A program made the position numbers and the translations under genes. This document shows, piece by piece, positions 3,982 to 26,662 of a stretch of DNA of 27,206 nucleotides. The notes below the pieces were generated by a model that was not told the origin of the DNA, ran no database searches, and was given only the letters and a program-made list of their open reading frames with translations. Source of the stretch: Nitrospira japonica (GTDB lineage: Bacteria; Nitrospirota; Thermodesulfovibrionia; Thermodesulfovibrionales; SM23-35). The first letter of the stretch is position 1. Every line of letters begins with the position of its first letter. Location of the stretch: assembly GCA_020725385.1 (NCBI GenBank), contig DYFC01000070.1:1-27206 (forward strand). Reading direction: 5' to 3'.

Positions 3982-3992
3982 GGAGGCTATGA

Positions 3993-4376
3993 ATGTCACA
4001 GATAAAAGTTCTTCTTGTTGATGATGAAATTGAGTTTGTTTCAGCTCTGGCTGAACGTCTGCAGATGAGAAATTACATTGTTAATACAGCTTCAAATGGA
4101 CTTGAAGCAATGGCATTATTTCATAAAAGCCCTCCTGATGTTGTAATACTCGACCTTAGGATCCCCGGTATGAACGGGATAGAAATACTCAAAAGCATTA
4201 AAACATTTGATCCATCTATTGAGGTAATTATACTGACCGGACATGGTGATATAGAAAGTGTTGAACAAGGAATGAAAAGCGGAGCATTTGAATATATAAT
4301 GAAACCAATTGATATAGGTGAATTAACCGCAAAGATTGATAGTGCTATGGAGAAACGGAGAAAAAGTTTAACTTAA
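3993..4376 (+). CDS. Stand-alone response regulator (receiver only)
   Basis: LLVDDE, ILDL, LTGHG and KP receiver motifs; AGGAGG RBS upstream. Confidence 0.92.
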   Translation: MSQIKVLLVDDEIEFVSALAERLQMRNYIVNTASNGLEAMALFHKSPPDVVILDLRIPGMNGIEILKSIKTFDPSIEVIILTGHGDIESVEQGMKSGAFEYIMKPIDIGELTAKIDSAMEKRRKSLT

Positions 4377-4382
4377 AGGAAA

Positions 4383-5042
4383 ATGATGAACCTGAATTTT
4401 GAAGAATTACTACGCCAGCTTCAGATGAGATTCATCGGAAAGATTATCGCAAGTTTTACTCATGAAATTAAGAACCATCTGGCAATAATAAAAGAATCTG
4501 CTGGTTTAATGGATGATATGTTAAGAATAGGAAAGTCTTCTGTAAATACTAATCAATATCTTGATATTCTAAACTCAATTGTTGAACAGGTTGATAGAAG
4601 CATCGATTTGTTCAAGTTCTTGAACAGATTTGCTCATAGAATGGATAATCAATTTTGCAATTTTCAGGTTAATGAAAGTCTTGAAGAATTAATAGCATTA
4701 ATGACACGTCTTGCCAATCAGAAAAAAATTATCTTTGAAAAATCTCTTGAACCAGAACTTCCCGAGCTTTATAATAATCCGTCTTTATTACAGTTAGTCA
4801 TTTTTAGTTTCCTTGAAAAATTTATTCAACAGCTTGCCAGTGGAAGCAGTATTATTGTTGTAACCGGAAAAACAGATAATTGTGTTAAAATAAGTCTTTC
4901 CTTCAAAGGAGAAATTATAAAATCCGAACCATTAAATGATTCATCAGAAATTATAAACGCCATTGTTAAAGAAAAAATGAAAGGAGAAATTGAAGATAAA
5001 GCTGATGCTGTAATGATAACAATTTCTTCTGTTTCAAAGTAA
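4383..5042 (+). CDS. Histidine-kinase-like protein with intact H box and degenerate ATP-binding domain (putative phosphotransferase/pseudokinase)
   Basis: FTHEIKNHLAIIKESAGLM matches the H box of the upstream kinase. No recognisable N, G1, F or G2 box and no sensor domain. Confidence 0.75.
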   Translation: MMNLNFEELLRQLQMRFIGKIIASFTHEIKNHLAIIKESAGLMDDMLRIGKSSVNTNQYLDILNSIVEQVDRSIDLFKFLNRFAHRMDNQFCNFQVNESLEELIALMTRLANQKKIIFEKSLEPELPELYNNPSLLQLVIFSFLEKFIQQLASGSSIIVVTGKTDNCVKISLSFKGEIIKSEPLNDSSEIINAIVKEKMKGEIEDKADAVMITISSVSK

Positions 5043-5060
5043 TCTAATGGAAGTTAATGG

Positions 5061-5462
5061 ATGAAAACTGGTGAAATAAAATTACTCATTGTAGATGATG
5101 AAGTTGCATTTGCCAATACACTTACACAGCGTCTTAAAATCAGGAATATCGAAGCTACTCCTGTATATGATGGAGAGCAGGCTCTTTCAAAACTAAAGGA
5201 ATCAGTTTTTGATGTGGTTTTGCTTGACTTAAAGATGCCCGGTATGCACGGGCTTGATGTGCTAAGGCAAATAAAAAAAATATATCCGGAAATTCAGGTT
5301 ATAATTCTTACAGCTCATGGAACCGATAAAGATGAAGAGGAAGCAAGATTATTTGGAAGTTTTGATTTTTTAAAAAAACCTGCTGATATTGATAATCTTG
5401 AGCAGAAAATAAGGAAGGCTTACAGAGAAAAAAAGAATATTGAAAGAATTAATGGGGAATAG
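5061..5462 (+). CDS. Stand-alone response regulator (receiver only)
   Basis: LIVDDE, LLDLKMPG, LTAHG and KP motifs. Confidence 0.92.
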   Translation: MKTGEIKLLIVDDEVAFANTLTQRLKIRNIEATPVYDGEQALSKLKESVFDVVLLDLKMPGMHGLDVLRQIKKIYPEIQVIILTAHGTDKDEEEARLFGSFDFLKKPADIDNLEQKIRKAYREKKNIERINGE

Positions 5463-5502
5463 ATAAAAATTAGTAACTAATCAATAAAAAGGAGGATATT
5501 CT

Positions 5503-5943
5503 ATGGCAGAAGAACTTAATGCTAATGTTTTGCTGGTGGATGACGAAGAACAGTTCTTAAAAGTATTTTCTCAGAGGCTTGAAGGTAGAGGGTTAAAAGT
5601 TGATACATCAACGAGCGGAGAGGAGGCTATCAATAAAGTTAAAGGCAAAGAATTTGACGCTATAGTTCTCGACCTTGCTATGCCGGGCATGAGCGGTATA
5701 GAAACTCTTAAGAAAATCAAAGCTGAAAATCCTGATTTACAGATTATAATGCTGACAGGACATGGTTCAATTGATAAAGGAGTAGAAGCTATTAAAGCCG
5801 GCGCTATTGACTTCATGGAAAAACCTGCTGACCTTAATAAGATTATGGAAAAGATTGCAGAGGCTAAACATAAAAGATTTGTAATTGTTGAAAAGAAACA
5901 CGAAGAGCACATTAAAGAAATCATACAAAGTAAAGCCTGGTAG
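5503..5943 (+). CDS. Stand-alone response regulator (receiver with short C-terminal helix)
   Basis: LLVDDE, VLDLAMPG, LTGHG and KP motifs; AAGGAGG RBS. Confidence 0.92.
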   Translation: MAEELNANVLLVDDEEQFLKVFSQRLEGRGLKVDTSTSGEEAINKVKGKEFDAIVLDLAMPGMSGIETLKKIKAENPDLQIIMLTGHGSIDKGVEAIKAGAIDFMEKPADLNKIMEKIAEAKHKRFVIVEKKHEEHIKEIIQSKAW

Positions 5944-6000: not shown

Positions 6001-7362
6001 TTAATCAGATTCCAGGCCGTATTTTTTTAATTTTCGCCATAGAGAGACACGGTCTATTCCGAGTATTTGAGCTGCGAGAGTTTTACTATTATTGACCTCT
6101 TTAAGCACCCATTGTATATATGTTTTTTCCTGTTCGTCCAGAGATGGAATTTTACCGTCTTTTTTTCTGAACGTTTTTATACTGATTACCTTAAGATCTT
6201 CCGGTAATTGTTCAATATTTATTGTGTTGCCCGTACATAGTGCAACACCTCTTTCAATAATATTTTCCAGTTCTCTAATATTTCCGGGGAAATCATACTC
6301 CTGCAGGATTGCTATTACATCGGATGAAATTTCTTTTATATTTTTTTTCATAACAGCATTATATTTTTTTAGAAAATGATAACAGAGTATCGGAATATCA
6401 TCCCTTCGTTCTGACAATGGGGGGATTTTCAATGATACAACGTTTATTCTAAAATATAAATCTTCTCTAAAATCTCCATTTTTAATAGCTTTACTAATAT
6501 CTCTATTTGTTGCAGCTATGAATCTGACATCAACTTTAATTGGTACCGTGCTACCAACTCTTAAAACTTCTTTTTCCTGTATTACCCTTAAAAGCTTTAC
6601 CTGCATTGAAGGTGGCATTTCAGTTATTTCATCAAGGAAAAGAGTACCTCCTGATGCCATTTCTACCAGACCCTTCTTCATTGTCAGTGCACCGGTAAAA
6701 GCGCCTTTTTCGTGGCCGAACAACTCGCTTGATAGAAGTTCTTCTGTAAAAGCCCCGCAATTTATAGCAAAAAAGGGCCCTTCTGCACGCTTGCTGTTAA
6801 AATGCACATACTTTGCAAAAAGTTCTTTTCCTGTTCCACTTTCTCCTGTTAATAAGATATTGCAGTCTGTTGGTGAAATCTGTTTTGCTGTCTCAAGCAG
6901 TTTTTGCATTGCAATGTTCTGGGTTATTATTTTAACCTTTCCTTGAAAACTTTCAATCTGCTCTCTTAATTCCTTGTTTTCTTTTTTTAGCTTTACTTTT
7001 TCAACAGCTTCTTTAATTATATTTCTAACCAGGTCGAGTTTAAAAGGTTTGGCAATGTAATGGAAGGCACCTTTTTTCATTGCATCAACAGCAGATTCCA
7101 ATGTTGCATATCCGGTAATAAGAATTACCTCTGAATCGGGATGGTCGTTGCGGCATTTTTCAAGTATCTGAAGTCCATCAACTTTTTCCATTCTTAAATC
7201 GGTCAAAATAACATCGAATTTCTGCTCATCAAGCAATTTAAGGGCGTTTATGCCACTACTTGTACCAATAACATCGTAACCTTCTTTTTTCAAAATGTGT
7301 TCGAGATTCTTTACTGCAATTTTTTCATCATCAACTACCAGTATTTTAGTCTCATTAGGCAT
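6001..7362 (-). CDS. Sigma54-dependent response regulator (NtrC/AtoC family bEBP: REC-AAA+-Fis HTH)
   Basis: Receiver domain, Walker A GESGTGKE, GAFTGA loop, Walker B LFLDEI, PGNIREL, and HTH AAQILGIDRVSLWRKLKKY. Confidence 0.95.
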   Translation of the reverse strand: MPNETKILVVDDEKIAVKNLEHILKKEGYDVIGTSSGINALKLLDEQKFDVILTDLRMEKVDGLQILEKCRNDHPDSEVILITGYATLESAVDAMKKGAFHYIAKPFKLDLVRNIIKEAVEKVKLKKENKELREQIESFQGKVKIITQNIAMQKLLETAKQISPTDCNILLTGESGTGKELFAKYVHFNSKRAEGPFFAINCGAFTEELLSSELFGHEKGAFTGALTMKKGLVEMASGGTLFLDEITEMPPSMQVKLLRVIQEKEVLRVGSTVPIKVDVRFIAATNRDISKAIKNGDFREDLYFRINVVSLKIPPLSERRDDIPILCYHFLKKYNAVMKKNIKEISSDVIAILQEYDFPGNIRELENIIERGVALCTGNTINIEQLPEDLKVISIKTFRKKDGKIPSLDEQEKTYIQWVLKEVNNSKTLAAQILGIDRVSLWRKLKKYGLESD

Positions 7363-8858
7363 TAGATTTGCTCCCTTATGGGAAACCTTATCAGAAAAGT
7401 CGATCCCTTACCAATTTCACTACAAACTCCTATGCAACCATCATGTTCATGTATAATTTCCTGAACAATATAAAGTCCAAGCCCCACTCCTTTACCGACA
7501 TCTTTTGTAGTAAAAAAAGGATCAAAAATCTTCGGCAAAACGTCAGGTGGGATTCCGCTTCCTGTATCCTTGATTTCTATATCTATTGTGTCAGTTTTTA
7601 TTGGACATTCACCTGTACAACTACCCTGTTCTTTTGTGTAATCGCAACGTTCATCTATGTCGCCTTTCAAAATATGTTTATATGCTTTTATTGAAACAGT
7701 ACCTTCATTATTAATAGAGTCTATTGCATTTTTAATCAAGTTTAAAAACGCTTGCTGAATCCTCTGCTTATCGGCAAAAATTGTAAATTCATCCGGCACT
7801 TCAATATTGACAGCAATTCTCGTAGGTATTTCACCTTTTAGCAATTGTTTTGTCTCTTGCAGGATTTTATTTAATTGCAAATATTCTCTTTTGAATTTTT
7901 TATCCCTTGAAAACTCGAGTAAAGATTTCACAATATTTTTAGCTTTGTCTGTCTGTTCATCAATCTGGGATAACAATTCTTTTTTGAATTTATTATCAAT
8001 ATCATCGATTTCTTCGATTAATATCTGGCACGATGAAGATATATTTGATAGAGGATTATTCAATTCATGTGCAACTCCGGATATGAGAGTGCCGAGTGAA
8101 GCAAGTTTTTCACGCTGAACAAGATGTTTTTGTCGTAATTCAAGCTCGTAAAGCATTTTGTTGAATGCCTGTGTAAGAGATACAATCTCCCTATCTTTTG
8201 AAATATTAGTTATTTTTTTTAATTTTCCTTTTGAAATTTCATCCATCATTGTTTCAATATTCTTCAGCGGTTTAACGATCATTCTTGATAATATCTGTCC
8301 AACAACTATGCCGATGATTGAAAATGATAGTATCGAAATAATGATAAATTTCCTTATTGTATTGAGCATAGCCTGAATTCTGAGCCGCTCAACTTTTGAA
8401 ATGTTTTCAGCAAAATTTATTATTTCTTTACCTTTCTCCCTGATAGCATTTTCCACTAAACTCAACCTTTTATCATCTTCTGCACTTCTCAAAATAGAAA
8501 ACTGTTTCATTAATAAACGGTATTGATTTAGATTATTCTTTAATTTATCAATATCTACCGAAATAGCAAGATTTTTATAGTCTTTTGTATTCTTATTGAG
8601 AATATCCAGAGCTTTTTCTAAATAAAAAATAGTTTCATTATAGTCTTCAATCTTTTTATATAAAAAGAAATTCTTTTCAAACCTTCTCATTTCAAGGGTT
8701 GCATCGAAAAATTCTGTTACAATTTCTCCGAAGTGTACTTTTTTTTCGATATACCAGAGTTCAATCAAAGTGAAAAGAGAAAGACCAATGATAGCTATTA
8801 TTCCTAAAAAATAGCCCAATGTAATTTTTCGTCTTATGCTTGGATGATACAAAAACAC
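7362..8858 (-). CDS. Membrane sensor histidine kinase with HAMP domain
   Basis: Two TM segments, HAMP (KPLKNI...EIVSLTQAFNKM), GVAHELNNPL, FLNLIKNA, DTGSG, FDPFFTTK, GVGLGL. Its stop overlaps the start of the response regulator. Confidence 0.93.
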   Translation of the reverse strand: MFLYHPSIRRKITLGYFLGIIAIIGLSLFTLIELWYIEKKVHFGEIVTEFFDATLEMRRFEKNFFLYKKIEDYNETIFYLEKALDILNKNTKDYKNLAISVDIDKLKNNLNQYRLLMKQFSILRSAEDDKRLSLVENAIREKGKEIINFAENISKVERLRIQAMLNTIRKFIIISILSFSIIGIVVGQILSRMIVKPLKNIETMMDEISKGKLKKITNISKDREIVSLTQAFNKMLYELELRQKHLVQREKLASLGTLISGVAHELNNPLSNISSSCQILIEEIDDIDNKFKKELLSQIDEQTDKAKNIVKSLLEFSRDKKFKREYLQLNKILQETKQLLKGEIPTRIAVNIEVPDEFTIFADKQRIQQAFLNLIKNAIDSINNEGTVSIKAYKHILKGDIDERCDYTKEQGSCTGECPIKTDTIDIEIKDTGSGIPPDVLPKIFDPFFTTKDVGKGVGLGLYIVQEIIHEHDGCIGVCSEIGKGSTFLIRFPIREQI

Positions 8859-8880
8859 GAATTTCTAATATCTCCATTTG

Positions 8881-10890
8881 CTATACAAGCAATCTGCTAA
8901 TTATATCTTCAATTCTATCAGTCAAGATTATTTCAAGTCCTTTAATTACTTTTGGATCCAGGTTTTCAATATCTACTTTATTCTTAAATGGTAATATAAT
9001 TGTTTTTACTCCTGCCCTGCGGGCAGCGAGTATTTTTTCTTTTATTCCGCCGACCGGTAAAATTCTTCCGCTTAAAGTTAACTCTCCGGAGACTGCTACA
9101 TCCCTTCTGGCTGGTTTTCCTGTGAAAAGCGATATAAGCGAAGCGGCTATGGTTGCCCCTGCTGAAGGCCCGTCTTTAGGTATCGCACCTGCAGGAATAT
9201 GGATATGAATGTCATAGCCTTCAAGAATATTTTCGCTAATATTAAAAGATGATGCATTGCTTCTAATATAGCTCAACGCAGCTTGAGCCGATTCTCTCAT
9301 TACATTCCCGAGTGAACCTGTAAGTATTAAATTCCCCAGACCTTTCATACGGGCTGATTCTATAAAAATAATTTCTCCGCCTGTTTCCATCCAGACAAGT
9401 CCTGTAACAACTCCTATTCTATTGTTTTCATCGGCAACTTCAATGAAATATTTCCTCGGACCGAGATACCTTTCTACTAATTCCGGAGTAATATTAACAA
9501 GCCTGATAGATTCTTTATGATATACAAATTCAGTAGCTATCTTTCTGCATATATTTGATATCTGTCTTTCGAGGTTTCTTGTCCCGGCTTCCCTTGTATA
9601 ATCATTTATAATTTTAGAGACAGCCTCGACAGAAAAATTTGGCGGGTAATCGGATAATCCCTGTTCTCTTATTTGCTTGGGTATTAAATGAAGAAGCGCA
9701 ATATTGATTTTTTCATCTTCGGTATAACCGGAAAATTCGATAATTTCCATTCGATCCCTTAGAGGTCCCTGAATATTTTCAGCTATATTTGCAGTAGCTA
9801 TAAACATTACATTGGATAAATCAAAGGGAACATCAAGATAATGGTCAATGAAGCTCTGATTTTGTTCAGGATCAAGAACTTCAAGAAGTGCTGATTCGGG
9901 ATCTCCTTTAAAGTCCTGCCCTCCGACCTTATCAATTTCATCAAGCATAATTACAGGATTTAAGGATTCTGCTCTGCGGATTTCTTCTATAATACGCCCG
10001 GGCATAGCACCTGCATATGTTCTTCTATGTCCTCTGATTTCGGCTTCATCTTTCATTCCGCCAACTGAAATTCTGGCAAACTTTCTTCCAAGAGCATCAG
10101 CAATAGATTTGCCAATAGATGTTTTGCCTGTACCGGGTGGACCGGTAAAACAAAGAACAGAACCTTTTGTAGATATAGTTGATAATTTTTTATCAAGCGC
10201 ATGTTTTACTGTTGAACGTACTTCATCAAGCCTGAATGGCTTTGCAATATAATGGAAAGCGCCTTTTTTTATGGCTTCTATGGCAGAATCTACAGCAGCA
10301 TAAGCGGTTATCATTATTACCTGTACATCAGGATATTTGTTTTTTACTTTTTCAAGGAGAACGAGACCGTCAATCTTTTCCATCTTCAAATCTGTAAGCA
10401 CTACATCAAATGAAGAAGTATTTAACTTTTCAATTGCTTCAACTCCATTTGATGCTGTAACAACATCATAATTTTCCTTTTTAAGAATATGTTCAATATT
10501 ATTACGTGCAATCTCTTCATCATCGACAACGAGTATGTGTGGTTTCTTATTCATTACCAGAACCTTAACAGCAAGATGTTCCAATATTCTTTCTTTAACG
10601 TCATTTAAACCATAATGTCTCTCATCCAAAATTTTCTTAGCCTGATTTAAATCGAGATTATCAGAAGTTTTTCTGTCCCATGGAAGACTGACAAGATAAT
10701 CTATATATGAAAGACTAATAGTATATTCTGCAGATGCAGGACTCATTTTAGACATTATTTCAAGTTCTCTCTCAGCAATATGTTTTACATTCTCGGGCAT
10801 CTTTGCAGAATTTATTCTTTGCCTGAAGTCATTCAAGATTGTAATTTGTTGGCTGTCTTCTGTTTTTTTAAATATATTCATTATCGGCAT
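8881..10890 (-). CDS. lon: Lon-type (S16) ATP-dependent protease lacking the N-terminal domain and carrying an inserted receiver domain
   Basis: LPW...ILDERHYGLNDVKERILEHLAV, Walker A GPPGTGKT, GHRRTYAGAMPG, Walker B MLDEIDK, catalytic PKDGPSAG (Ser) and VGGIKEK (Lys). Receiver at about aa 116-235. Confidence 0.9.
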   Translation of the reverse strand: MPIMNIFKKTEDSQQITILNDFRQRINSAKMPENVKHIAERELEIMSKMSPASAEYTISLSYIDYLVSLPWDRKTSDNLDLNQAKKILDERHYGLNDVKERILEHLAVKVLVMNKKPHILVVDDEEIARNNIEHILKKENYDVVTASNGVEAIEKLNTSSFDVVLTDLKMEKIDGLVLLEKVKNKYPDVQVIMITAYAAVDSAIEAIKKGAFHYIAKPFRLDEVRSTVKHALDKKLSTISTKGSVLCFTGPPGTGKTSIGKSIADALGRKFARISVGGMKDEAEIRGHRRTYAGAMPGRIIEEIRRAESLNPVIMLDEIDKVGGQDFKGDPESALLEVLDPEQNQSFIDHYLDVPFDLSNVMFIATANIAENIQGPLRDRMEIIEFSGYTEDEKINIALLHLIPKQIREQGLSDYPPNFSVEAVSKIINDYTREAGTRNLERQISNICRKIATEFVYHKESIRLVNITPELVERYLGPRKYFIEVADENNRIGVVTGLVWMETGGEIIFIESARMKGLGNLILTGSLGNVMRESAQAALSYIRSNASSFNISENILEGYDIHIHIPAGAIPKDGPSAGATIAASLISLFTGKPARRDVAVSGELTLSGRILPVGGIKEKILAARRAGVKTIILPFKNKVDIENLDPKVIKGLEIILTDRIEDIISRLLV

Positions 10891-11078
10891 ACCTTAATTT
10901 ATAATTACTATTCAAATCAAATAATAAGCAAATATTATACCTTCCGAAAAAATCATACTTTATTAATGATGAATTCCTATTTATATATTGTTCGTCTTTA
11001 ATAAATAAGAAAAAATAAGGAAGTTTTATTGAAAGTCGATTACATATGTAAATCCTCATTATTCTCGGAATATTCTTT

Positions 11079-11180
11079 GTTGCATTATACAACAAAAACA
11101 ATATTTTATGTAACATCTCAAAACTCTTTGATAAAACTTAATATTTCTTCCCTTTACAATTTATAGTTGCATATTGCAAC
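11079..11180. promoter_or_regulatory. Two copies of the palindrome GTTGCA-N3-TRCAAC (candidate UAS for the adjacent sigma54 activator)
   Basis: GTTGCATTATACAAC at 11079-11093 and GTTGCATATTGCAAC at 11166-11180, in the divergent intergenic region. Confidence 0.6.
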
Positions 11181-11227: not shown

Positions 11228-11272
11228 AATCAATAAGTTAGCAATATTTTACATCCAGGCATGGGAATTGAG
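11228..11272 (+). promoter_or_regulatory. IHF site and sigma54-type -24/-12 promoter
   Basis: AATCAATAAGTTA (11228-11240) is an exact WATCAANNNNTTR match. AGGCATGGGAATTGAG (11257-11272) is GG-N10-GA, ending 42 nt before the ATG at 11315. Confidence 0.65.
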
Positions 11273-11314: not shown

Positions 11315-12145
11315 ATGGAAATAAAGAAATTAGTTCAGCAATTTGAGGATTTAATGTCAACTTCATTTTTTGAAGAAGGCAAATTGGAGACCCTGAAAAG
11401 AATGGTGAATAACCGTCACAAAATTCTTCTTGTTTTAACCGGAATGGAAGTTGATATAGATGCAGTAAAGTATTCACTAAATCTTAGCAGACGTATTGGA
11501 GCTGGAATTAAAATTTTATACCTAACCAGAGATAACTCGGAACTCCCGCGTATCGAAGATGCCCTCAATAAACTAAAAACCATAGGAATAAGTTATCAGA
11601 TTAAAGTTTTGGAAAATTCTGTAAAAGAAGAAATTGTTAATTACATAAATAAAGAAAAAGAAGCAGATATTAGTTTTGTAATAGTTGATTCGAGGGATCT
11701 GGGAATTCATTCACTTAATGGCCGGAACGTAGATTACCATGATTGGGAAAAAATGAGATGCCCGCTGGTTCTGGTATCAAAAACACCAAAAATTATTTCA
11801 CTAAAGAGGAGGATGGTTATGACACAAAATTATGTAAGCATGAGGAAGAAGCCGCTCGGTAAAATGGTAATTTATGGACTGGCTTCTGTTGCAATGTATG
11901 CAGCGTTACTTGTTAATCAAACAGCTATTACATCACTATTTACAAGAGGAGCATGGTATGCATTATTTCCTATAGCGACAGCTTTCGCTTTTTCGTTTGT
12001 GCACGGGAATTTTGCGGGCTATTTCTGGTCTGTCTTAGGTGTAGAAGCAACCAAAAAATCTTTGCGTAAAAGTCAGGAAGAGTATAAGCATATTGAAAGA
12101 AGAGAACGCCCTCAGCCACAGCCACGTCTGAGAGCAAGATTATAA
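11315..12145 (+). CDS. Apparent in-frame fusion of a degenerate USP-like protein and a small two-TM membrane protein (second start at 11819)
   Basis: The N-terminal part has a USP-like pattern (KILLV...AVKYSLNLSRRIGA.IKILYL...CPLVLVS). An internal AGGAGG (11807-11812) precedes an in-frame ATG at 11819 and a 108-aa hydrophobic segment. Confidence 0.65.
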   Translation: MEIKKLVQQFEDLMSTSFFEEGKLETLKRMVNNRHKILLVLTGMEVDIDAVKYSLNLSRRIGAGIKILYLTRDNSELPRIEDALNKLKTIGISYQIKVLENSVKEEIVNYINKEKEADISFVIVDSRDLGIHSLNGRNVDYHDWEKMRCPLVLVSKTPKIISLKRRMVMTQNYVSMRKKPLGKMVIYGLASVAMYAALLVNQTAITSLFTRGAWYALFPIATAFAFSFVHGNFAGYFWSVLGVEATKKSLRKSQEEYKHIERRERPQPQPRLRARL

Positions 12146-12166
12146 GAATAAGGAGGAGGTATAATT

Positions 12167-13255
12167 ATGCAAAACATAGTATTAGACGCAGCAAATTTTA
12201 TAGATCTAAATTCTGTGAATATACTTTATCTTTTTATTGTTGGGTTTATCGGTGGACTTGTCAGCGGTTTTATAGGTTCCGGAGGTGCATTTGTACTTAC
12301 ACCGGGCATGATGAGTCTTGGTGTACCGGGACTTGTAGCAGTAGCCAGCAATATGTGCCATAAATTCCCCAAGGCACTTGTAGGTGCAATTAAACGGGCA
12401 AAATACGGACAGGTAGATATTAAATTGGGGATTATATTTGGAATATTTGCAGAGGCTGGTGTATTTTATGGCGCACATATTCAGGAAAAAATTAAAGCAG
12501 CTTTCGGCGATGCAGGTTCTAACCTTTATGTAAGTGCAGCATTTGTTATTGTTCTTGCAATAGTAGGAGGTTTTGTACTGCGCGACGCGATTAAAACTTA
12601 CAAATCCGGCAATACAGACGCTGAGGAAAAAACATCAAGACTTGCAAGGATGGTCCAAGCTATAAATATTCCCGGCACCATGGTTTATTTCAAGAGCTTG
12701 AATGCAAGAGTATCTTTGCTTTTTTTAATACCTCTTGGTTTTTGTACAGGCATGCTTGCTGCAACCATAGCGGTTGGCGGATTTCTTGGAGTGCCTTCAA
12801 TGATATATGTACTTGGTGCCCCGAGCCTTATGGCATCAGCTACCGAACTTGTTGTTGCATTCGTAATGGGACTTGGTGGGTCATTTAAATATGCCCTTCA
12901 CGGGCTCGTTGATATAAGATTGTCAGCTATAATCCTTGCAGGTTCACTTTTCGGGATTCAATTAGGTGCAATCGGAACAACTTATGTCAAACCATTCATG
13001 ATAAAATTAGTTATGGGTGTTATAATGGTCATAGTTCTTTTTAGCAGAGCATTGATGATACCTGTATATCTTTCACAACTCGGTATAATTCAGACACTAA
13101 CTGAAGAAACTATAAAAATCCTAAAGAATACAAGTTTTGCTATAATGGCATTTGCACTTTTATCAGGTGCTTTTATTGTTCTGAGAGCAATGTGGATTGG
13201 TAAAAAGACCGAAAGTGCAATCGCGGAAAAAGAAGAAGCAATAGAAAATGTCTAA
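12167..13255 (+). CDS. TauE/SafE (TSUP, DUF81) family membrane transporter
   Basis: Multi-TM protein with the repeated motif GFIGGLVSGFIGSGGAFVLTP / GMLAATIAVGGFLGVPSMIYVLG; strong RBS. Substrate cannot be determined from sequence. Confidence 0.88.
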   Translation: MQNIVLDAANFIDLNSVNILYLFIVGFIGGLVSGFIGSGGAFVLTPGMMSLGVPGLVAVASNMCHKFPKALVGAIKRAKYGQVDIKLGIIFGIFAEAGVFYGAHIQEKIKAAFGDAGSNLYVSAAFVIVLAIVGGFVLRDAIKTYKSGNTDAEEKTSRLARMVQAINIPGTMVYFKSLNARVSLLFLIPLGFCTGMLAATIAVGGFLGVPSMIYVLGAPSLMASATELVVAFVMGLGGSFKYALHGLVDIRLSAIILAGSLFGIQLGAIGTTYVKPFMIKLVMGVIMVIVLFSRALMIPVYLSQLGIIQTLTEETIKILKNTSFAIMAFALLSGAFIVLRAMWIGKKTESAIAEKEEAIENV

Positions 13256-13274
13256 TTAAAGAGGATGGAATAGG

Positions 13275-14129
13275 ATGAATATTTATAGAAAAATACTCGT
13301 AGCAATAGATGGTTCTAAAACAAGCATGCATGCCTTAAGAGAGTTTATTAATTTCTCAAAATCGTATAATCCAGATATAACCATTATTTCTGTTATTCCA
13401 CCTTATGACGGAGACCTAAATGCGTTGTGGGTTAACAATATAGATAGTTCTATAAAAAGACAATGTGATACTGCGCTTTCGGATGCTTTAAAAATAGCTA
13501 AAGATGCAGATATATCAGTCAGTGCTGTTTGTGAAGAGGGAGAGATACATGAAAGAATTGTTGATTTTGCTGATTCAGGGAATTATGACCTGATTGTAAT
13601 GGGTAAAAAAGGAATGAGCTTAATTGAAAAAGCATTTGTTGGCAGTGTAACTTCAAGAGTAATTGGTTATAGCAGACAGGATGTTCTTGTTATACCTTTT
13701 GAATCGAAACTTTCGTGGGATAATATACTTGTAGCAACCGACGGTTCGGCATATAGTGAAGTTGCTGCTATGAGGGCAATAGAGATTGCCAGAAAATATA
13801 AAAGTAAAGTTAAAGTTCTTTCTGTTGTTGATGTAACTGTGGAATTCATGATACGCGCACAGGAAGTATATAATAATCTTGTAGAAAAGGCGAAAGATAT
13901 CACAAACAATATAAAAGCTAAGGCCTTTTCCCTTGGTGTTGGTGCAGAACCAATTGTCCGTGATGGTGAAGTATATAGAGTAATTCTTGATGTTGCCAAT
14001 GAATATAAAATAGACATGATTGTCATGGGGAGTCTTGGTAAGTCGGGTATTAAACGATTACTGATGGGAAGTACTACCGAAAGAGTGCTCGGGCATGCTA
14101 ATTGTCCGGTTCTGATTATTAAGCCATAG
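13275..14129 (+). CDS. Universal stress protein with tandem USP domains
   Basis: KILVAIDGS...DLIVMGKKG...VGSVT and NILVATDGS...DMIVMGSLG...LMGSTTERVL...CPVLII. Confidence 0.93.
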   Translation: MNIYRKILVAIDGSKTSMHALREFINFSKSYNPDITIISVIPPYDGDLNALWVNNIDSSIKRQCDTALSDALKIAKDADISVSAVCEEGEIHERIVDFADSGNYDLIVMGKKGMSLIEKAFVGSVTSRVIGYSRQDVLVIPFESKLSWDNILVATDGSAYSEVAAMRAIEIARKYKSKVKVLSVVDVTVEFMIRAQEVYNNLVEKAKDITNNIKAKAFSLGVGAEPIVRDGEVYRVILDVANEYKIDMIVMGSLGKSGIKRLLMGSTTERVLGHANCPVLIIKP

Positions 14130-14289: not shown

Positions 14290-15507
14290 CTATTTGTTAC
14301 CCTGTCTAATTTTTTCATTTGCTTTTTTAATTGTTTCACTTAATAGATTTACATCAACAGGTTTTTCAAGATAAGCGAATGCTCCGAGTTCCATACATTT
14401 TTTCCTGTCTTCTTCCGAGCCATGTCCTGTAAGAATGATAACTTCAATTTTCGGGTTTGTCTGTTTCACACGTTTAAGAACTTCAATACCATCGATTCCG
14501 GGCATTTTCAGGTCAAGTATCATAACTTCAGGTTCTTCTTCTTTGATTATATTCAGAGCGCTTTCACCATCGTAGGCTACAACAGAACCTATTTCTCTCA
14601 TGAGAAGTCTTTCAGAAAGTGTTTGAACAAACTGGCGTTCATCATCAACGAGCAATAATTTTGTCGGCATCTCAAGGTCGTATTTTCTGACAATATCTGT
14701 CTGGTAAAATTTTTTACCAACTTTTGTTGAGACAGACTTCACTCCAGGAACTTTTGTCGCTATGGCCTGTAATTCTTTTTCAAGTTTCTCAAGCATTAAT
14801 ACATTTTTATTTATTGTTAAAGTAACAGCACCGTCTTCTGCTTCTGCATTTATGAAATATTGTCCTTCATTGGCAAGAACAGTCTCAAATTTTGCAGCGA
14901 GGATAAAATCCTGAATAGCTTTCTTGCTCCGGTCGGTTGTTTTAAGAACATCCTTTTCCAGACTTTTTCTTACCATATCTGCTATTTCTTTTGAACTCAT
15001 CTTATCAGTTGGTAAAACCATATCGTAAAGTGAAATATTCCAGGGATCGTCTTTTTCAAGAATAGTTCTTGTCCATATAATCTTTTCCTCGTCGCTTTTG
15101 TGAATAATTTTCGAGGCATCACTTTCGGAAACGCCCGATGAAATAGCGACTGAAATTCTATATTTCATGTCTGCTATTAGGCATATTTTAAGAACATGTG
15201 AAATTTTTGGCGGTATTAAAAGGCTTGTAAAACCATTGATTAAAAGGTTGTCTTCGGATAGGGTTTCAGCAACAGCCAGTTTAAGGTATGCGATTGATTT
15301 TTCTTTTTCTCTTGTAAACTGATTAAAGATAGAAGTCTTTGAAGAAAAAGCTTTTGATATTTTATCTTCAGACATTCCGGACAATTTGGCTGCCTTAGAA
15401 ACAAAGTCAGAGTCAGTTAGATATTTATAGCCTGACATAGCTATAATTTCTTTTATAGCTATTTCTTCATTACAATACTTACCTGAAAAAATACTTATTA
15501 TTGACAT
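14290..15507 (-). CDS. Multidomain response regulator: cytidylate-kinase-like domain, BON-like domain and C-terminal receiver
   Basis: N-terminal IISIFSGKYC...VLKICLIADMKYR...DDPWNISLYDMVLPT pattern of CMK-like proteins; BON-like INAEAEDGAVTL...IATKVPGVKSV; receiver LLVDDE/ILDLKMPG/LTGHG/KP. Confidence 0.78.
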   Translation of the reverse strand: MSIISIFSGKYCNEEIAIKEIIAMSGYKYLTDSDFVSKAAKLSGMSEDKISKAFSSKTSIFNQFTREKEKSIAYLKLAVAETLSEDNLLINGFTSLLIPPKISHVLKICLIADMKYRISVAISSGVSESDASKIIHKSDEEKIIWTRTILEKDDPWNISLYDMVLPTDKMSSKEIADMVRKSLEKDVLKTTDRSKKAIQDFILAAKFETVLANEGQYFINAEAEDGAVTLTINKNVLMLEKLEKELQAIATKVPGVKSVSTKVGKKFYQTDIVRKYDLEMPTKLLLVDDERQFVQTLSERLLMREIGSVVAYDGESALNIIKEEEPEVMILDLKMPGIDGIEVLKRVKQTNPKIEVIILTGHGSEEDRKKCMELGAFAYLEKPVDVNLLSETIKKANEKIRQGNK

Positions 15508-15526: not shown

Positions 15527-17650
15527 CTAAACCTTGCAAACAGCGAGCAAGGGACATTCTTTTTCTAACTTGTCCTTATGGGTTGTTGGATAAATCTTGT
15601 TTATTGCCTCTTCCTGTGTCGGATATATATGGTCAGCACCTATTTTTTCAAAAAGATGTGTGCGTTTAAGTACAGCCATTACTGACTCATTTACTCCACT
15701 TAAGGATATATCCATACCGGAACTTCTTATCCTGTCAACAAGCAATGACAAAGTTTCCTCGCCGGAAGCATCCATTTCATTTATACCGTTAGCAATAAGA
15801 ATGATATGCTTTAAATTCTTCTTCTTTGAGATAATTTCTCTTATACTATCTTCAAGATAACTTGAGTTTGCAAAGAATAAAGGACCATCGAATCTGACAA
15901 CCGAAATATGTTCACATTCTTTAAGACCGTGAGTTTCAATGCAACGAAGAGATTTATCTTCATGCCTTGCAAGTAATGCAATCCTGGGTTTCATGCTCTT
16001 ATATAAGAATACCGAAATTGAAAGAACAACGCCAATCATTATACCCTTATCAAGATGCGGGGCAAAAGCCAGAGTTGCAATAAAAGCAAGTACCGAGATA
16101 ATTCCATCATATTTCTGGGCCTTCCATGCATGTACAAAACCCGAGACATTTATTAAGCCTATAACAGCCATCATAATAACAGCAGCAAGAACAGACTGGG
16201 GCAAATGATAAAGCAAGGGGGTAAAGAATAAAAGGACTATTAAAACAGCAAGGCTTGTAAAAACACTTGAGAGTCCTGTTATAGCGCCTGCCTGGAAATT
16301 AACTGCTGAACGTGAAAAAGAACCTGAAACAGGATAGCCTTTTCCTATAGCTCCTACTATATTTGCGATTCCCTGTCCTATAAGTTCCTGATTCGGGTCG
16401 AGCCTTTGCCCGGTTTTTCCTGCCAATGCCTTGGCTATTGATATTGCTTCCATGAATCCAAGCAGTGAGATAATTACAGCATAAGGAAGAAGATGTAAAA
16501 TAACCTTTAAATCTACAGGCGGTACTGTGAATGAAGGTAATCCTTTTGGAACAACACCAACAACAGCGCCACCACCAATAAAGCGTACAGAGTCTTCCTT
16601 TATGGGTTTATTTCCAACTCTAATTCTCCAGATTTTATTGTCAGCTGATAATCCTTGTGGCACTTCCCCTTTAAGATAAAAAGTCATAGTACCATCGGAT
16701 TGTTTAACACCTGTAAAAAACATTTCTCTAAGTTCTTTTCTTAAAGAAGCTTCTTTCATTTTTAATTCTTCCATACTTACATTAAGAACTTCTTCGTTTC
16801 GCTTTATATTTAGTATTTCTATTTTATTATTATTCTTTTTTGCTTCGTCCATAAGTCTTGTATTTTCAGTGCGTTGTTTTGAAAGCTCGGAAATATCATT
16901 TAGTGTTTTATTAAAGGTTATAATCATTTCGTGAACTTTTGGAGATTGTATATGGGAAATATCTACCCTGGTATCATTTTCAAACCCTATTGCCCATGAA
17001 ACAATTGTTGTGATTGCTACGGCTACAAGAACGTTGGGTATTTTTGGATTAATCTTTTTTAATCCGAACATTATAATAAAAGCAGCTACTCCCATAATAA
17101 ATGTTGGCCAGTGCGTGTAATGTATTGCAGCTTCTATAACTCTAATGACTGTTTCATAATGATGCGGAGCTTCATCAACTGAAACACCGAACATTTTTGA
17201 TAACTGTGAAGTGGCAATAATTATTGCCGCGCCATTAGTAAAGCCATTAACAACAGGATGGGATAAAAAATTTACAACAAGTCCGAGTCTTAAAACACCA
17301 AGCAAGAATTGAAAGGCACCTACAATTAAAGCAAGTAATATCGCATAAGCAATAAAGCTTTCACTACCTGCTGTAGCTAAAGGACTTAGAGATGCGGATG
17401 TCATTAGTGATACAACTGCAACCGGCCCGGTAGCAAGTTGTCTGCTTGAACCAAACAATGCTGCAAGCATCGGTGGTAAAAAAGAAGCATAAAGGCCATA
17501 ATAAGAAGGCAATCCGGCTAATTGCGCATAAGCCATTGATTGGGGTATCAATACTAACGCAACAGTAAGTCCTGCAATTGCGTCAGCTTTTAGTTTTGAA
17601 AAGTTGTAACCTTTCATCCATTCCAGAAATGGAAATATTCGTGCCAGCAT
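15527..17650 (-). CDS. SulP/SLC26 family inorganic anion transporter with STAS domain
   Basis: DAIAGLTVALVLIPQSMAYAQLAGLP, GSSRQLATGP, NQELIGQG, GSFSRSAVN, and STAS motif RFDGPLFFAN...MDASG. Confidence 0.93.
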   Translation of the reverse strand: MLARIFPFLEWMKGYNFSKLKADAIAGLTVALVLIPQSMAYAQLAGLPSYYGLYASFLPPMLAALFGSSRQLATGPVAVVSLMTSASLSPLATAGSESFIAYAILLALIVGAFQFLLGVLRLGLVVNFLSHPVVNGFTNGAAIIIATSQLSKMFGVSVDEAPHHYETVIRVIEAAIHYTHWPTFIMGVAAFIIMFGLKKINPKIPNVLVAVAITTIVSWAIGFENDTRVDISHIQSPKVHEMIITFNKTLNDISELSKQRTENTRLMDEAKKNNNKIEILNIKRNEEVLNVSMEELKMKEASLRKELREMFFTGVKQSDGTMTFYLKGEVPQGLSADNKIWRIRVGNKPIKEDSVRFIGGGAVVGVVPKGLPSFTVPPVDLKVILHLLPYAVIISLLGFMEAISIAKALAGKTGQRLDPNQELIGQGIANIVGAIGKGYPVSGSFSRSAVNFQAGAITGLSSVFTSLAVLIVLLFFTPLLYHLPQSVLAAVIMMAVIGLINVSGFVHAWKAQKYDGIISVLAFIATLAFAPHLDKGIMIGVVLSISVFLYKSMKPRIALLARHEDKSLRCIETHGLKECEHISVVRFDGPLFFANSSYLEDSIREIISKKKNLKHIILIANGINEMDASGEETLSLLVDRIRSSGMDISLSGVNESVMAVLKRTHLFEKIGADHIYPTQEEAINKIYPTTHKDKLEKECPLLAVCKV

Positions 17651-20720: not shown

Positions 20721-22091
20721 ATGAGAAAATTATCAATATTGGCATTTTTGATATTCATACTTTTTAGTAGCCAGGTAACGGCGGAAGAAGTTGCTAACCC
20801 CCCTTCTCCTCCGGCGGTTGAGCAGGCGGGTCCTGCTCAACCCATTCCTCCGGCACTTATAACCAAAGAAGAACCGAAGATAGACACAGGTGATACTGCA
20901 TGGATGATAGTTGCAACAGCTCTTGTGATGCTTATGACATTACCCGGTTTAGCCTTATTCTATGGAGGTCTTGCTAAGAGAAAAGACACACTTAATACTA
21001 TGGCAATGTCTTTTGTAACCTATTGTATAGTGAGCTTTCTCTGGGTAATATATGGATTCAGTCTAACATTTGGTACAGATATTGGCGGTATTATAGGAAG
21101 TACCGAGAAATTATTTTTATCCGGTGTTGGCGTAAACAGTATTAATGACCTTGCGAAAACAATACCCGAATATATCTATATTGTTTATCAGCTTACTTTT
21201 GCAGCAATTACTGTAGCACTTGCAAGCGGTGCTTATATAGAAAGAATGAAGTTTTCAGCATGGGTTCTTTTTACAATTTTATGGATGACTTTGGTGTATA
21301 TACCTGTTGCACATTGGGTATGGGGTGGAGGATTTCTTGCAAAACTTGGAGCACTTGATTTTGCAGGTGGAACAGTCGTACATATAAATGCAGGAATAGC
21401 AGCTTTAATGGGAGCTCTGGTATTAGGGAAGAGGCGCGAGGCATCATTAAAACCTAGTAATTTAACACTTGTTGTAACCGGTGCAGGCCTTTTATGGTTT
21501 GGATGGTTCGGATTCAATGCAGGTTCGGCAGTTGCAGCTAATGGACTTGCAGGCGCTGCTTTTATAAATACAAACACAGCAACAGCTCTGGCTGCAATAT
21601 CATGGATGTTTACAGAGTGGTTGCATACGAAAAAACCTACTGTTCTTGGTCTTGCATCAGGTGCAGTAGCCGGATTGGTAGCTATAACACCTGCTGCGGG
21701 TTTTGTTAATATTAAAGGAGCAATTATTATTGGAATACTGGCCGGTATAATCCCGTATTTTGCTGTTGCAAGCATAAAACCGAAACTCGGATATGACGAT
21801 TCTCTCGATGCATTCGGGATACATGGAGTTGGTGGTATTCTTGGTGCAATACTAACAGGAGTATTTGCAGACCCTTCAATTAATGAAGTTGGCAAAGGTT
21901 TGTTGTTCGGTAATCCCGGTCAAATGCTCACGCAGATTATTGCTGTAATTGTGACAATGGCTTACAGTGCTATTATGACTTTGATTATATTTATGATAGT
22001 TAAGGTTATAATTGGTGTAAGGGTTAATATTGAGCACGAAATAACCGGACTTGATGAAAGCCAGCATGGCGAAAAAGCGTATAGTTTGTAA
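20721..22091 (+). CDS. amtB: Ammonium transporter
   Basis: GDTAW, PGLALFYGG, DFAGGTVVH, WFGWFGFNAGS, DDSLDAFGIHG (both twin-His residues); signal peptide and Pro-rich linker. Confidence 0.96.
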   Translation: MRKLSILAFLIFILFSSQVTAEEVANPPSPPAVEQAGPAQPIPPALITKEEPKIDTGDTAWMIVATALVMLMTLPGLALFYGGLAKRKDTLNTMAMSFVTYCIVSFLWVIYGFSLTFGTDIGGIIGSTEKLFLSGVGVNSINDLAKTIPEYIYIVYQLTFAAITVALASGAYIERMKFSAWVLFTILWMTLVYIPVAHWVWGGGFLAKLGALDFAGGTVVHINAGIAALMGALVLGKRREASLKPSNLTLVVTGAGLLWFGWFGFNAGSAVAANGLAGAAFINTNTATALAAISWMFTEWLHTKKPTVLGLASGAVAGLVAITPAAGFVNIKGAIIIGILAGIIPYFAVASIKPKLGYDDSLDAFGIHGVGGILGAILTGVFADPSINEVGKGLLFGNPGQMLTQIIAVIVTMAYSAIMTLIIFMIVKVIIGVRVNIEHEITGLDESQHGEKAYSL

Positions 22092-22106
22092 TGAAAAAAG
22101 GAGTAA

Positions 22107-22448
<342 letters not shown>

Positions 22449-22497
22449 CTCTAAAGGCAAAGAGCTAATAGCAGAGAGCAAAGAGCCAGAAAACAGA

Positions 22498-22630: not shown

Positions 22631-22679
22631 CGGGAAATATTTATATTATCTGATGAATTTAAAAGACAGTAATTTTCCA

Positions 22680-22885: not shown

Positions 22886-22925
22886 AATAAGCTCAAGTAA
22901 GTTGCTGATATTAATCGGAGGTTTT

Positions 22926-26600: not shown

Positions 26601-26662
26601 TTTGGCAATTTAATTATAACAACTTGTTTCAGATTAAAAAAAGACTTATATTATCATATATC

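What the first reader, a model, noticed from the sequence alone, without database searches (positions are those of the whole stretch)
8881..10890. Lon protease with a phospho-receiver spliced into the ATPase module and no substrate-binding N domain
Seen: the protein begins at the helical region just before the AAA+ module, so the N-terminal Lon domain is absent. A complete receiver (about 10186-10545, with DD, phospho-Asp in LTDL, Thr and KP intact) sits between EHLAVKVL and the Walker A strand VLCFTGPPGTGKT, which are only a few residues apart in ordinary LonA. Walker A/B and the Ser-Lys dyad are intact. Inference: an AAA+ protease switched directly by two-component phosphorylation. I recall a similar Lon-REC/kinase/sigma54-regulator locus in Desulfovibrio vulgaris, so the architecture may already be catalogued (unverified), but I know of no biochemical characterisation.
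Basis: partly seen in the sequence, partly recalled or inferred. Interest (0 to 1): 0.85.

Follow-up and report, generated by a model that had tools for sequence, protein, structure and literature searches.

The report
Lon protease with inserted phospho-receiver domain
This gene encodes a Lon-type ATP-dependent protease that has lost its usual substrate-binding head and carries a two-component receiver domain inside its ATPase, a real and widespread design that was already noted in Desulfovibrio but has never been studied biochemically.

Summary
ORF 8881-10890 (-) encodes 669 aa. A complete receiver domain (residues 113-237) is inserted with no loss of Lon residues between helix alpha0 and the Walker A strand of a LonA-type AAA+ module. 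The LonA N domain is absent. The receiver's phospho-acceptor residues, Walker A/B and the Ser-Lys dyad are invariant or nearly invariant in 49 homologues.

It is not a chimera. Hundreds of homologues share the architecture, and independent contigs bridge both junctions.

The receiver is a paralogue (59% identity) of the receiver of the sigma54 activator encoded two genes downstream. One histidine kinase gene lies between them. The locus, including a divergent membrane-protein/TauE/Usp operon and a palindromic operator, is conserved across Nitrospirota and Thermodesulfobacteriota.

It matches the published description of the DVU3303-3305 "three-component system" of D. vulgaris. Rajeev et al. 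(2011) had already proposed phosphorylation-dependent protease activity. Trotter et al. (2023) reported cofitness above 0.9 for the three genes.

The architecture is therefore catalogued. I found no biochemistry in eight literature searches. The phospho-switch remains an inference, and I could not determine the direction of control, the substrate or where the receiver sits on the hexamer. Interest is moderate: this is a new member of a noted but uncharacterised kind.

The parts
8881..10890 (-). lon-REC coding sequence, 669 aa. The likely true start is M4 at 10881, which gives 666 aa.
   Evidence: (P0002)
10555..10890 (-). Residues 1-112: retained LonA helical region (helices 6-28, 33-47, 54-68, 81-91) and AAA+ helix alpha0 (96-114). 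The LonA N domain that should precede it is absent.
   Evidence: (48% identity to own LonA over 103 aa)
10180..10554 (-). Residues 113-237: inserted NtrC-type receiver domain. The phospho-acceptor D167 is at nt 10390-10392. The other active-site residues are D123, D124, T195 and K217.
9721..10179 (-). Residues 238-390: AAA+ alpha/beta subdomain. Walker A GPPGTGKTS is at 250-258 (nt 10117-10143), Walker B at D317 E318, and the pore-loop Tyr at Y292.
9496..9720 (-). Residues 391-465: Lon AAA+ lid subdomain.
   Evidence: Lon_lid 409-459
8884..9495 (-). Residues 466-669: S16 protease domain. S576 is at nt 9163-9165 and K619 at nt 9034-9036.
7362..8858 (-). Membrane histidine kinase (HAMP-HisKA-HATPase_c). 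It starts 22 nt after the lon-REC stop.
6001..7362 (-). Sigma54 enhancer-binding response regulator (REC, Sigma54_activat, HTH_8; GAFTGA present). Its start overlaps the kinase stop. Its receiver is 59% identical to the receiver inside Lon.
11079..11093 (.). Palindromic operator copy 1, GTTGCATTATACAAC.
11166..11180 (.). Palindromic operator copy 2, GTTGCATATTGCAAC, 87 bp from copy 1.
11257..11272 (+). Sigma54-like -24/-12 element aGGCATgggaaTTGAg, 43 nt before the ATG at 11315. The same TTGA variant points to the same operon in L007, L009, L010 and L011.
10927..10942 (-). Weak sigma54-like match (7 of 11 positions) upstream of lon-REC. It is probably chance.
11315..14129 (+). Divergent operon: a 276-aa Usp-like/membrane protein (11315-12145), a TauE/SafE-family transporter (12167-13255) and a tandem-Usp protein (13275-14129).

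Best explanation
Shown from sequence. This is a LonA-derived AAA+ serine protease, 56% identical to the genome's own canonical LonA over the ATPase and protease parts. It lacks the N-terminal substrate-binding domain. It carries an NtrC-type receiver inserted between helix alpha0 and strand beta1 (the Walker A strand) of the ATPase. All catalytic residues of the receiver, ATPase, pore loop and protease are conserved across the family. The receiver is a paralogue of the receiver of the sigma54 activator in the same operon. A single histidine kinase gene sits between the two genes, and the whole module is conserved across two phyla. The module comprises Lon-REC, the kinase, the activator, a palindromic operator and a divergent membrane-protein/TauE/Usp operon.

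Inferred. The locus is the counterpart of the D. vulgaris DVU3303-3305 three-component system. The kinase phosphorylates both receivers, giving a branched pathway. The phosphorylated activator turns on the sigma54 promoter of the divergent TauE/Usp operon. Phosphorylation of D167 in Lon-REC changes the protease's ATPase/proteolytic activity or its assembly. The predicted connectors are very short on both sides: alpha0 to receiver beta1 is 3 residues, and the long receiver helix alpha5 to the Walker A strand is 3 residues. Movements of the alpha4-beta5-alpha5 face would therefore be passed directly to the nucleotide-binding strand. I think activation by phosphorylation is the likelier direction, but the direction is not shown. 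The substrate is unknown; a product of the co-regulated divergent operon or a component of the pathway itself is the obvious candidate.
For: Architecture and clean insertion: (TIGR00763 lon 728.6 bits in two stretches, cut-off 608).

Conservation in 49 full-length family members: D123, D124, D167, K217, P218, Walker A, D317 E318, Y292, S576 and K619 are invariant; T195 is at least 90% conserved.

Fold model: pLDDT 86, pTM 0.78, a (beta/alpha)5 receiver with 3-residue connectors. The Lon body of the model superposes on N-truncated LonA structures with TM up to 0.91 (7yuh_A, 4ypl_F, 6u5z_A), so alpha0 keeps its usual place.

The gene is real. All 120 listed hits and all 120 carry PF00072 with PF00004. 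Of these, 117 and 118 also carry Lon_C, and none lists PF02190. In one search, 32 of 201 genomes of the phylum hold the whole junction, one copy each. In one search, contigs of runs X1 and X4 bridge both junctions.

Shared kinase. The two receivers are 59% identical (E 3e-51). Lon and activator receivers of 9 loci form one clade (100/99) apart from 4 other receivers of the window. The kinase-docking helix alpha1 is 66% identical within a locus, against 14-29% to the other receivers. Within-locus pairs are more alike than shuffled pairs in 5000 of 5000 permutations.

Synteny. Kinase and activator lie within 7 kb in 8 of 8 further loci. TauE and the small membrane protein are divergent in 7 of 8.

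Operator GTTGCA-N3-TGCAAC (2 mismatches or fewer). There are 16 hits in 6.3 kb of these intergenic regions (8 of 9 loci) against 1 hit in 133 kb elsewhere. It is present in 10 of 12 further Nitrospirota loci.

Literature. [quoted passage not shown] Trotter 2023 (passage) reports pairwise cofitness above 0.9 for the three genes.
Against: No experiment on any family member shows phosphotransfer to the Lon receiver or an effect on proteolysis.

The cofitness in D. vulgaris could partly reflect polarity, because lon-REC is the first gene of the operon. This is my caveat. The word 'polar' does not occur in the main text of that paper.

Orthology to DVU3303 rests on matching descriptions and on Desulfovibrionaceae loci L013 and L055. 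I did not align against DVU3303 itself.

I could not obtain coordinates, so the position of the receiver relative to the hexamer, the pore or the neighbouring subunit is unknown.

Within-locus similarity of the two receivers can also arise from shared ancestry and amino-acid composition. The outgroup of the receiver tree was only 4 receivers of the window, none of NtrC type.

The lon-REC operon has no conserved sigma54 promoter. Nine of 12 relatives have no match of 6 of 11 or better within 250 nt upstream of the start. Matches of 7 of 11 occur at 0.59 per kb per strand in the window. Kazakov 2015 marks DVU3303-3305 as lacking a sigma54 promoter. Autoregulation by the activator, if any, is therefore not of the simple sigma54 kind.

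In D. vulgaris, loss of the signalling genes helps growth in chlorate while loss of the target transporter hurts it. A plain 'activator turns on the transporter' model does not explain this.
Confidence: 0.6

Rival explanations
1. Phosphate sink or signalling modulator. The receiver in Lon mainly competes with the activator for the kinase's phosphoryl groups, or docks the protease on the kinase. Proteolysis itself is constitutive and is not gated by phosphorylation.
For: The two receivers are nearly indistinguishable on all surfaces. No position separates the two types at 7 of 9 loci or more, and helix alpha1 is 66% identical within loci, so they must compete for one kinase. Branched pathways in which a second regulator acts as a sink are known; this point is recalled, not from a call.
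Against: A sink does not need a 540-residue protease with every catalytic residue invariant. It also does not need insertion at one fixed point next to the Walker A strand with 3-residue connectors in every member. A free single-domain receiver would be enough.
Confidence: 0.15
2. Substrate or adaptor receptor. With the N domain gone, the receiver is the recognition module. Through its alpha4-beta5-alpha5 face it pairs, depending on phosphorylation, with the paralogous receiver of the activator (or with the kinase) and feeds it to the pore. This would give proteolytic feedback on the pathway.
For: The N domain is absent in every family member seen (0 of 240 listed hits carry PF02190), so another recognition element is needed. 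alpha4 and beta5 are 60-65% identical between the two receivers within loci. NtrC-family receivers dimerise through this face. That last point is recalled; related entries 1ny5 and 3dzd appear among the hits.
Against: If Lon-REC destroyed the activator, lon-REC and activator mutants should have opposite phenotypes. In D. vulgaris they behave alike (cofitness above 0.9), although polarity could mask this. There is no direct evidence for any receiver-receiver contact.
Confidence: 0.12
3. Artefact or decayed gene: an assembly chimera of a Lon gene and a response-regulator gene, or a pseudo-enzyme.
For: None found. A truncated relative with a degenerate Walker A and no protease domain does exist in other Nitrospirota, which shows that the family can decay.
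Against: Independent contigs from two studies bridge both junctions: X1 covers 9260-11035 and X4 covers 8700-10710. The same architecture occurs in isolates and on multi-megabase contigs. The reading frame is uninterrupted and the catalytic residues are invariant. The truncated form is not in this genome.
Confidence: 0.01

Closest known systems
DVU3303 of Desulfovibrio vulgaris Hildenborough (Lon-type response regulator of the DVU3303-3305 three-component system; Rajeev et al. 2011, Trotter et al. 2023)
   Same: The description matches: a response regulator with a Lon protease part, next to a histidine kinase and a sigma54 activator. The locus is divergent from an operon of membrane, UspA-type and anion-transporter genes. 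A conserved activator binding site is reported, and orthologues are reported in Thermodesulfovibrio. The Desulfovibrionaceae loci L013 and L055 show the same architecture and neighbours.
   Different: This is another phylum (Nitrospirota), with about 50% identity to the Desulfovibrionaceae members. I did not align against DVU3303 itself. The papers do not state the insertion point, the loss of the N domain or the paralogy of the two receivers, as far as the passages I saw go. The published motif is in a figure and in supplements that I could not see.
Canonical LonA (E. coli Lon, B. subtilis LonA, Meiothermus taiwanensis Lon; PDB 6u5z, 3m6a, 4ypl)
   Same: The AAA+ module, lid, S16 protease with Ser-Lys dyad, pore-loop Tyr and the helical region before the ATPase are all shared. 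The TIGR00763 score is above its cut-off. The model superposes on these structures with TM up to 0.91. It is 56% identical to the genome's own LonA.
   Different: There is no N-terminal substrate-binding domain. A 125-residue receiver sits between alpha0 and beta1. It naturally resembles the N-truncated laboratory constructs that were crystallised.
NtrC1/DctD/NtrC-type enhancer-binding proteins (a receiver controlling assembly of an AAA+ ring)
   Same: An NtrC-type receiver is joined by its alpha5 helix to an AAA+ domain. The best receiver matches are NtrC-family proteins. The receiver is a paralogue of that of the neighbouring activator.
   Different: The AAA+ domain is of the Lon clade, not the sigma54-interaction clade. 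The receiver lies inside the AAA+ module, after alpha0, rather than before it. The linker is about 3 residues instead of a coiled coil. Whether assembly is controlled is untested.
RssB and CpdR (receiver proteins that steer ClpXP proteolysis in trans; recalled, not from a call)
   Same: Two-component phosphorylation decides what an AAA+ protease degrades.
   Different: Those are separate adaptor proteins acting on ClpXP. Here the receiver is part of the protease chain of a Lon.

Membership tests
LonA (MEROPS S16, subfamily A; TIGR00763 endopeptidase La) | AAA+ module with Walker A and B, followed by the Lon lid | tested here: met
   Pfam AAA 246-387 and Lon_lid 409-459. GPPGTGKTS and D317 E318 are invariant in 49 sequences.
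LonA (MEROPS S16, subfamily A; TIGR00763 endopeptidase La) | C-terminal S16 protease domain with Ser-Lys dyad | tested here: met
   Lon_C 467-668, E 1.8e-78. S576 and K619 are invariant and align with E. coli S679 and K722.
LonA (MEROPS S16, subfamily A; TIGR00763 endopeptidase La) | N-terminal Lon substrate-binding domain (PF02190) | tested here: not met
   No PF02190 hit. The protein starts at about E. coli Lon residue 233. There is no upstream room. The only PF02190 in the genome is in the canonical LonA. None of 240 listed homologues carries it.
LonA (MEROPS S16, subfamily A; TIGR00763 endopeptidase La) | Score above NCBIfam's curated cut-off | tested here: met
   TIGR00763 scores 728.6 bits against a cut-off of 608, but in two stretches that are split by the receiver.
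Response regulator receiver (PF00072) | Acidic pair, phospho-acceptor Asp, Thr/Ser and Lys of the active site | tested here: met
   D123, D124, D167 and K217 are invariant and T195 is at least 90% conserved in 49 sequences. Pfam E 9.7e-31.
Response regulator receiver (PF00072) | (beta/alpha)5 fold | tested here: met
   The predicted model has five strand-helix pairs between 118 and 241, with block pLDDT 77-92. This is a prediction only.
Response regulator receiver (PF00072) | Phosphorylation by a histidine kinase, with an effect on output | not testable with these tools
   Indirect evidence only: an adjacent kinase gene, and helix alpha1 shared with the activator's receiver.
DVU3303-3305-type three-component system | Lon-type response regulator encoded with a histidine kinase and a sigma54 activator | tested here: met
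   Same-strand operon 10890 to 6001. The three genes lie together in 8 of 8 further loci.
DVU3303-3305-type three-component system | Divergent target operon with membrane, Usp-type and anion-transporter genes and a sigma54 promoter | tested here: met
   The 276-aa protein, TauE and tandem Usp lie at 11315-14129. TauE is divergent in 7 of 8 loci. The -24/-12 element is at 11257-11272, with the same variant in four other loci.
DVU3303-3305-type three-component system | Conserved binding motif of the activator | tested here: inconclusive
   A conserved palindrome GTTGCA-N3-TGCAAC is strongly enriched. The published motif is in Figure 8 and Table S9 of Rajeev 2011, which I could not see, so identity with it is not shown.
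DVU3303-3305-type three-component system | Sequence orthology to DVU3303 itself | not tested
Desulfovibrionaceae members L013 and L055 are 50% identical over about 640-660 aa.

The most novel reading that the evidence does not exclude
The receiver does two jobs in place of the lost N domain. It is a phospho-switch wired directly into the Walker A strand that sets ring assembly or ATPase activity. It is also the substrate receptor: through its alpha4-beta5-alpha5 face it pairs with the near-identical receiver of the sigma54 activator, or with a product of the divergent operon. One kinase signal would then both start transcription and time the proteolytic shut-off of its own pathway. This would be a cis-encoded version of RssB/CpdR-type control, here in a Lon.
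Probability: 0.12. Interest if true: 0.8.

Novelty: new member of a known kind. Interest (0 to 1): 0.5.

Why it matters
Regulated proteolysis by AAA+ proteases is normally steered by separate adaptors. Known links to two-component signalling (RssB, CpdR) act in trans on ClpXP. A Lon that carries its own receiver next to the Walker A strand would be the most direct link between a kinase and an unfoldase-protease.

The family is common in sulfate reducers and Thermodesulfovibrio-like Nitrospirota: 32 of 201 genomes of the phylum carry it, as do several families of Thermodesulfobacteriota. It is compact, lacks the N domain and has a genetic handle in D. vulgaris, so it is a tractable system for asking how an inserted switch domain controls an AAA+ ring.

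For this scan the result is sobering. The architecture and the phospho-switch hypothesis have been in print since 2011. This work adds the exact insertion point, the universal loss of the N domain, the paralogy and likely shared kinase of the two receivers, the conserved operator, and the spread across two phyla.

Tried and rejected
Receiver self-association. Complex prediction on residues 113-243, two copies, with alignment A2 returned 'no answer' (score 0.02, mark 0.42). This is neither support nor evidence against.

Expression. The look-up of sequencing runs listed no RNA holder, so I could not test co-transcription or start sites.

Sigma54 promoter for lon-REC. The window's match at 10927-10942 fits 7 of 11 positions. 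It is not conserved in relatives, and such matches occur at 0.59 per kb per strand. I rejected it as evidence. My first regular expression had the spacing wrong by one base and found nothing. I corrected it.

Receiver position on the hexamer. This was not done.

Alpha0 mimicry. BLAST aligned receiver alpha5 plus linker (219-243) with LonA alpha0 plus linker. I treat this as a chance likeness between amphipathic helices, because the activator's alpha5 looks similar and the model keeps alpha0 in place.

Type-specific receiver positions. None separates Lon receivers from activator receivers at 7 of 9 loci or more, so I could not read an output surface from the sequences.

Serine-protease architecture survey. 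PMC2605481 does not mention receiver or two-component domains.

Earlier findings of this scan.

Supplements of Rajeev 2011 (Tables S5, S9) and its Figure 8, which hold the DVU3305 motif and the orthologue lists, could not be seen. They may bear on the operator claim.

The 8 Lon-REC loci among its 80 are a sample, not a census.
Full report
**1. Observation**

The ORF at 8881-10890 on the minus strand encodes 669 residues. Pfam finds Response_reg at 119-228 (E 9.7e-31), AAA at 246-387, Lon_lid at 409-459 and Lon_C at 467-668. It finds no Lon substrate-binding domain. NCBIfam's endopeptidase La model (TIGR00763) scores 728.6 bits against a cut-off of 608, but in two stretches.

Against solved structures, residues 22-112 align to B. 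subtilis Lon 3m6a 13-103 and residues 238-669 to 3m6a 103-531. In E. coli Lon the matched ranges are 254-343 and 347-769. About 125 residues are therefore inserted at a point where ordinary LonA has at most three, and nothing of Lon is lost.

The protein begins at about the equivalent of E. coli Lon residue 233. The divergent gene starts 424 nt upstream. The genome's only PF02190 domain is in its canonical LonA on another contig. The probable true start is M4 at nt 10881.

**2. It is real**

All 120 best hits to residues 1-300 carry the receiver together with the AAA domain. Of these, 117 also carry Lon_C; the other three are 441-568 aa. None lists PF02190. A second search seeded with a 52%-identical member gave the same picture in a Desulfobulbus clade that includes the isolate D. 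propionicus DSM 2032: 118 of 120 with Lon_C and none with PF02190.

In a sample of 201 genomes of the window's phylum, 32 hold the whole junction segment in an open frame, one copy each. Among high-quality genomes this is 27 of 148, and by genus 20 of 82.

Contigs assembled independently from public runs bridge both junctions of the insertion. X1 covers 9260-11035 with no differences. X4, from another study, covers 8700-10710 with 15 differences. X8 bridges the N-terminal junction.

**3. Conservation and fold**

In 49 full-length members (49-94% identical to the window's protein), the following are invariant: D123, D124, D167, K217 and P218 of the receiver, the Walker A and B motifs, the pore-loop Tyr Y292, S576 and K619. 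T195 is at least 90% conserved.

An AlphaFold2 model built on this alignment has pLDDT 86 and pTM 0.78. Helix alpha0 (96-114) runs into receiver strand beta1 (118-122) after 3 residues. The long receiver helix alpha5 (221-241) runs into the Walker A strand (245-249) after 3 residues.

The Lon part of the model superposes on N-truncated LonA structures with TM up to 0.91. The receiver is therefore an excursion from an otherwise ordinary Lon body.

I could not obtain coordinates. Where the receiver sits on a hexamer is unknown.

**4. Surroundings**

Downstream on the same strand lie two genes. The first is a membrane histidine kinase (7362-8858), which starts 22 nt after the lon-REC stop. The second is a sigma54 enhancer-binding response regulator (6001-7362), whose start overlaps the kinase stop.

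Divergently upstream lie a 276-aa Usp-like/membrane protein, a TauE/SafE-family transporter and a tandem-Usp protein. The genome has rpoN.

Among 80 loci returned from the species-representative genomes, 8 are Lon-REC loci. They come from a Nitrospirota MAG, Desulfobacter vibrioformis, Desulfocurvus, two Syntrophobacteraceae, an unclassified deltaproteobacterium and two Desulfovibrionaceae.

In all 8, a homologous kinase and activator lie within 7 kb. In 7 of 8 (not L008), TauE and the small membrane protein are divergent neighbours. The tandem Usp gene is seen in 2.

**5. The two receivers**

The receiver inside Lon is 59% identical, without gaps, to the receiver of the activator in the same operon (E 3e-51).

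In a tree of the two receivers from 9 loci plus 4 other receivers of the window, the 18 form one clade (support 100/99). Within it they group by type rather than by locus, though the split is weakly supported (46/85). This fits one old duplication followed by co-divergence.

Within-locus identity is 46-60% (mean 51%), against 46% for between-locus pairs. No shuffled pairing reached the observed mean in 5000 permutations.

Helix alpha1, the main kinase-docking element by established knowledge, is 66% identical within loci, against 14-29% to the other receivers of the window.

No position distinguishes the two types at 7 of 9 loci or more.

This supports one kinase serving both receivers. The caveats are that shared ancestry and composition also raise within-locus identity, and that the outgroup was small.

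**6. Regulation**

The intergenic region holds two copies, 87 bp apart, of the palindrome GTTGCA-N3-TGCAAC.

With up to 2 mismatches, the motif occurs 16 times in 6.3 kb of the corresponding intergenic regions of the 9 loci. It is present in 8 of 9 (none in L012), often as pairs 81-91 bp apart. Elsewhere in the same loci it occurs once in 133 kb. It recurs in 10 of 12 further Nitrospirota loci.

A sigma54-like -24/-12 element with TTGA at -12 points to the divergent operon in the window (11257-11272). The same variant points the same way in L007, L009, L010 and L011.

Upstream of lon-REC itself there is only a 7-of-11 match, which is not conserved in relatives. This agrees with Kazakov et al. 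2015, who mark DVU3303-3305 as lacking a sigma54 promoter (table seen).

**7. What is known**

Rajeev et al. [quoted passage not shown] They report that DVU3305 binds upstream of its own operon and of DVU3302-3298 (membrane and UspA-type proteins). They also note orthologues with a conserved site in Thermodesulfovibrio yellowstonii, Thioalkalivibrio and Dechloromonas.

Trotter et al. 2023 (passage seen) find the three genes detrimental in chlorate, with pairwise cofitness above 0.9. The target anion transporter DVU3299 is needed in chlorate.

The window's locus matches this description feature by feature. I did not align to DVU3303 itself.

Eight literature searches found no biochemical or structural study of such a protein. 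The library lacks most subscription journals.

**8. Mechanism**

Shown: the anatomy, the conservation, the paralogy and the conserved module.

Inferred: the kinase phosphorylates both receivers. The activator drives the TauE/Usp operon. Phosphorylation of D167 alters the protease through the rigid alpha5-to-Walker-A connection.

The direction of control, the substrate and the role of assembly are open.

The opposite signs of the chlorate phenotypes, for the signalling genes versus the transporter, hint that the system's net effect on the transporter is negative. Proteolysis of a product of the divergent operon would allow this, but that is speculation, and polarity of insertions in the first gene is a caveat.

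The rivals are a phosphate sink, a receiver acting as substrate receptor in place of the N domain, and an artefact. The last is excluded.

**9. Verdict**

This is a new member, in another phylum, of a noted but uncharacterised family. Interest is moderate, mainly as a well-defined target for biochemistry and cryo-EM.

Noticed in passing
window 14290-15507 (-): A 405-aa protein with an N-terminal cytidylate-kinase-like domain (Cytidylate_kin2) and a C-terminal receiver domain. This is an unusual response-regulator architecture.
   Followed up: no
window 2254-5943 (+): A dCache histidine kinase followed by three single-domain response regulators and a 219-aa ORF with no Pfam match.
   Followed up: no
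window 26718-26732: The only copy of the GTTGCA-N3-TGCAAY palindrome outside the lon-REC intergenic region. It lies at the 5' end of an AhpC/TSA-type thiol peroxidase ORF (26624-27178), whose real start may be further downstream. It could be an extra target of the activator.
   Followed up: no
proteins P0139, P0145, P0180 and about 35 clusters (not in this genome): A family of 361-386-aa relatives in Nitrospirota that keep the helical region, the inserted receiver and the AAA alpha/beta subdomain. Their Walker A is degenerate, and they end before the lid and protease domains. They occur on contigs up to 87 kb, so they are probably complete genes. They are absent from the window's genome.
   Followed up: partly
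proteins P0136, P0143, P0147, P0148, P0152, P0161, P0177, P0179: Lon proteins of 889-1207 aa with two tandem Lon-type AAA modules before one protease domain. One of them (P0177) has N-terminal ankyrin repeats. None has a receiver.
   Followed up: no
window 11315-12145 (+) and homologues in L007, L009-L013, L055: The 276-aa divergent neighbour has no Pfam or NCBIfam match. Its conserved core is the C-terminal part of about 100 aa, which stands alone as a 100-136-aa ORF in L009, L012 and L013. The N-terminal part looks Usp-like by the Atlas search only. It is always next to TauE.
   Followed up: partly
L091-L094 (one genus of the phylum), last 60 nt before lon-REC: In these relatives the palindromes lie 30-60 nt before the start codon and overlap a sigma70-like TTGCAA-N18-TAAAAT. 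The activator's site may therefore repress lon-REC there, or otherwise act at its core promoter (read by eye).
   Followed up: no
window 15527-17650 (-), 20721-25733 (+): A SulP-STAS anion transporter next to the locus, and an amtB-glnB-amtB-glnA nitrogen cluster further on.
   Followed up: no
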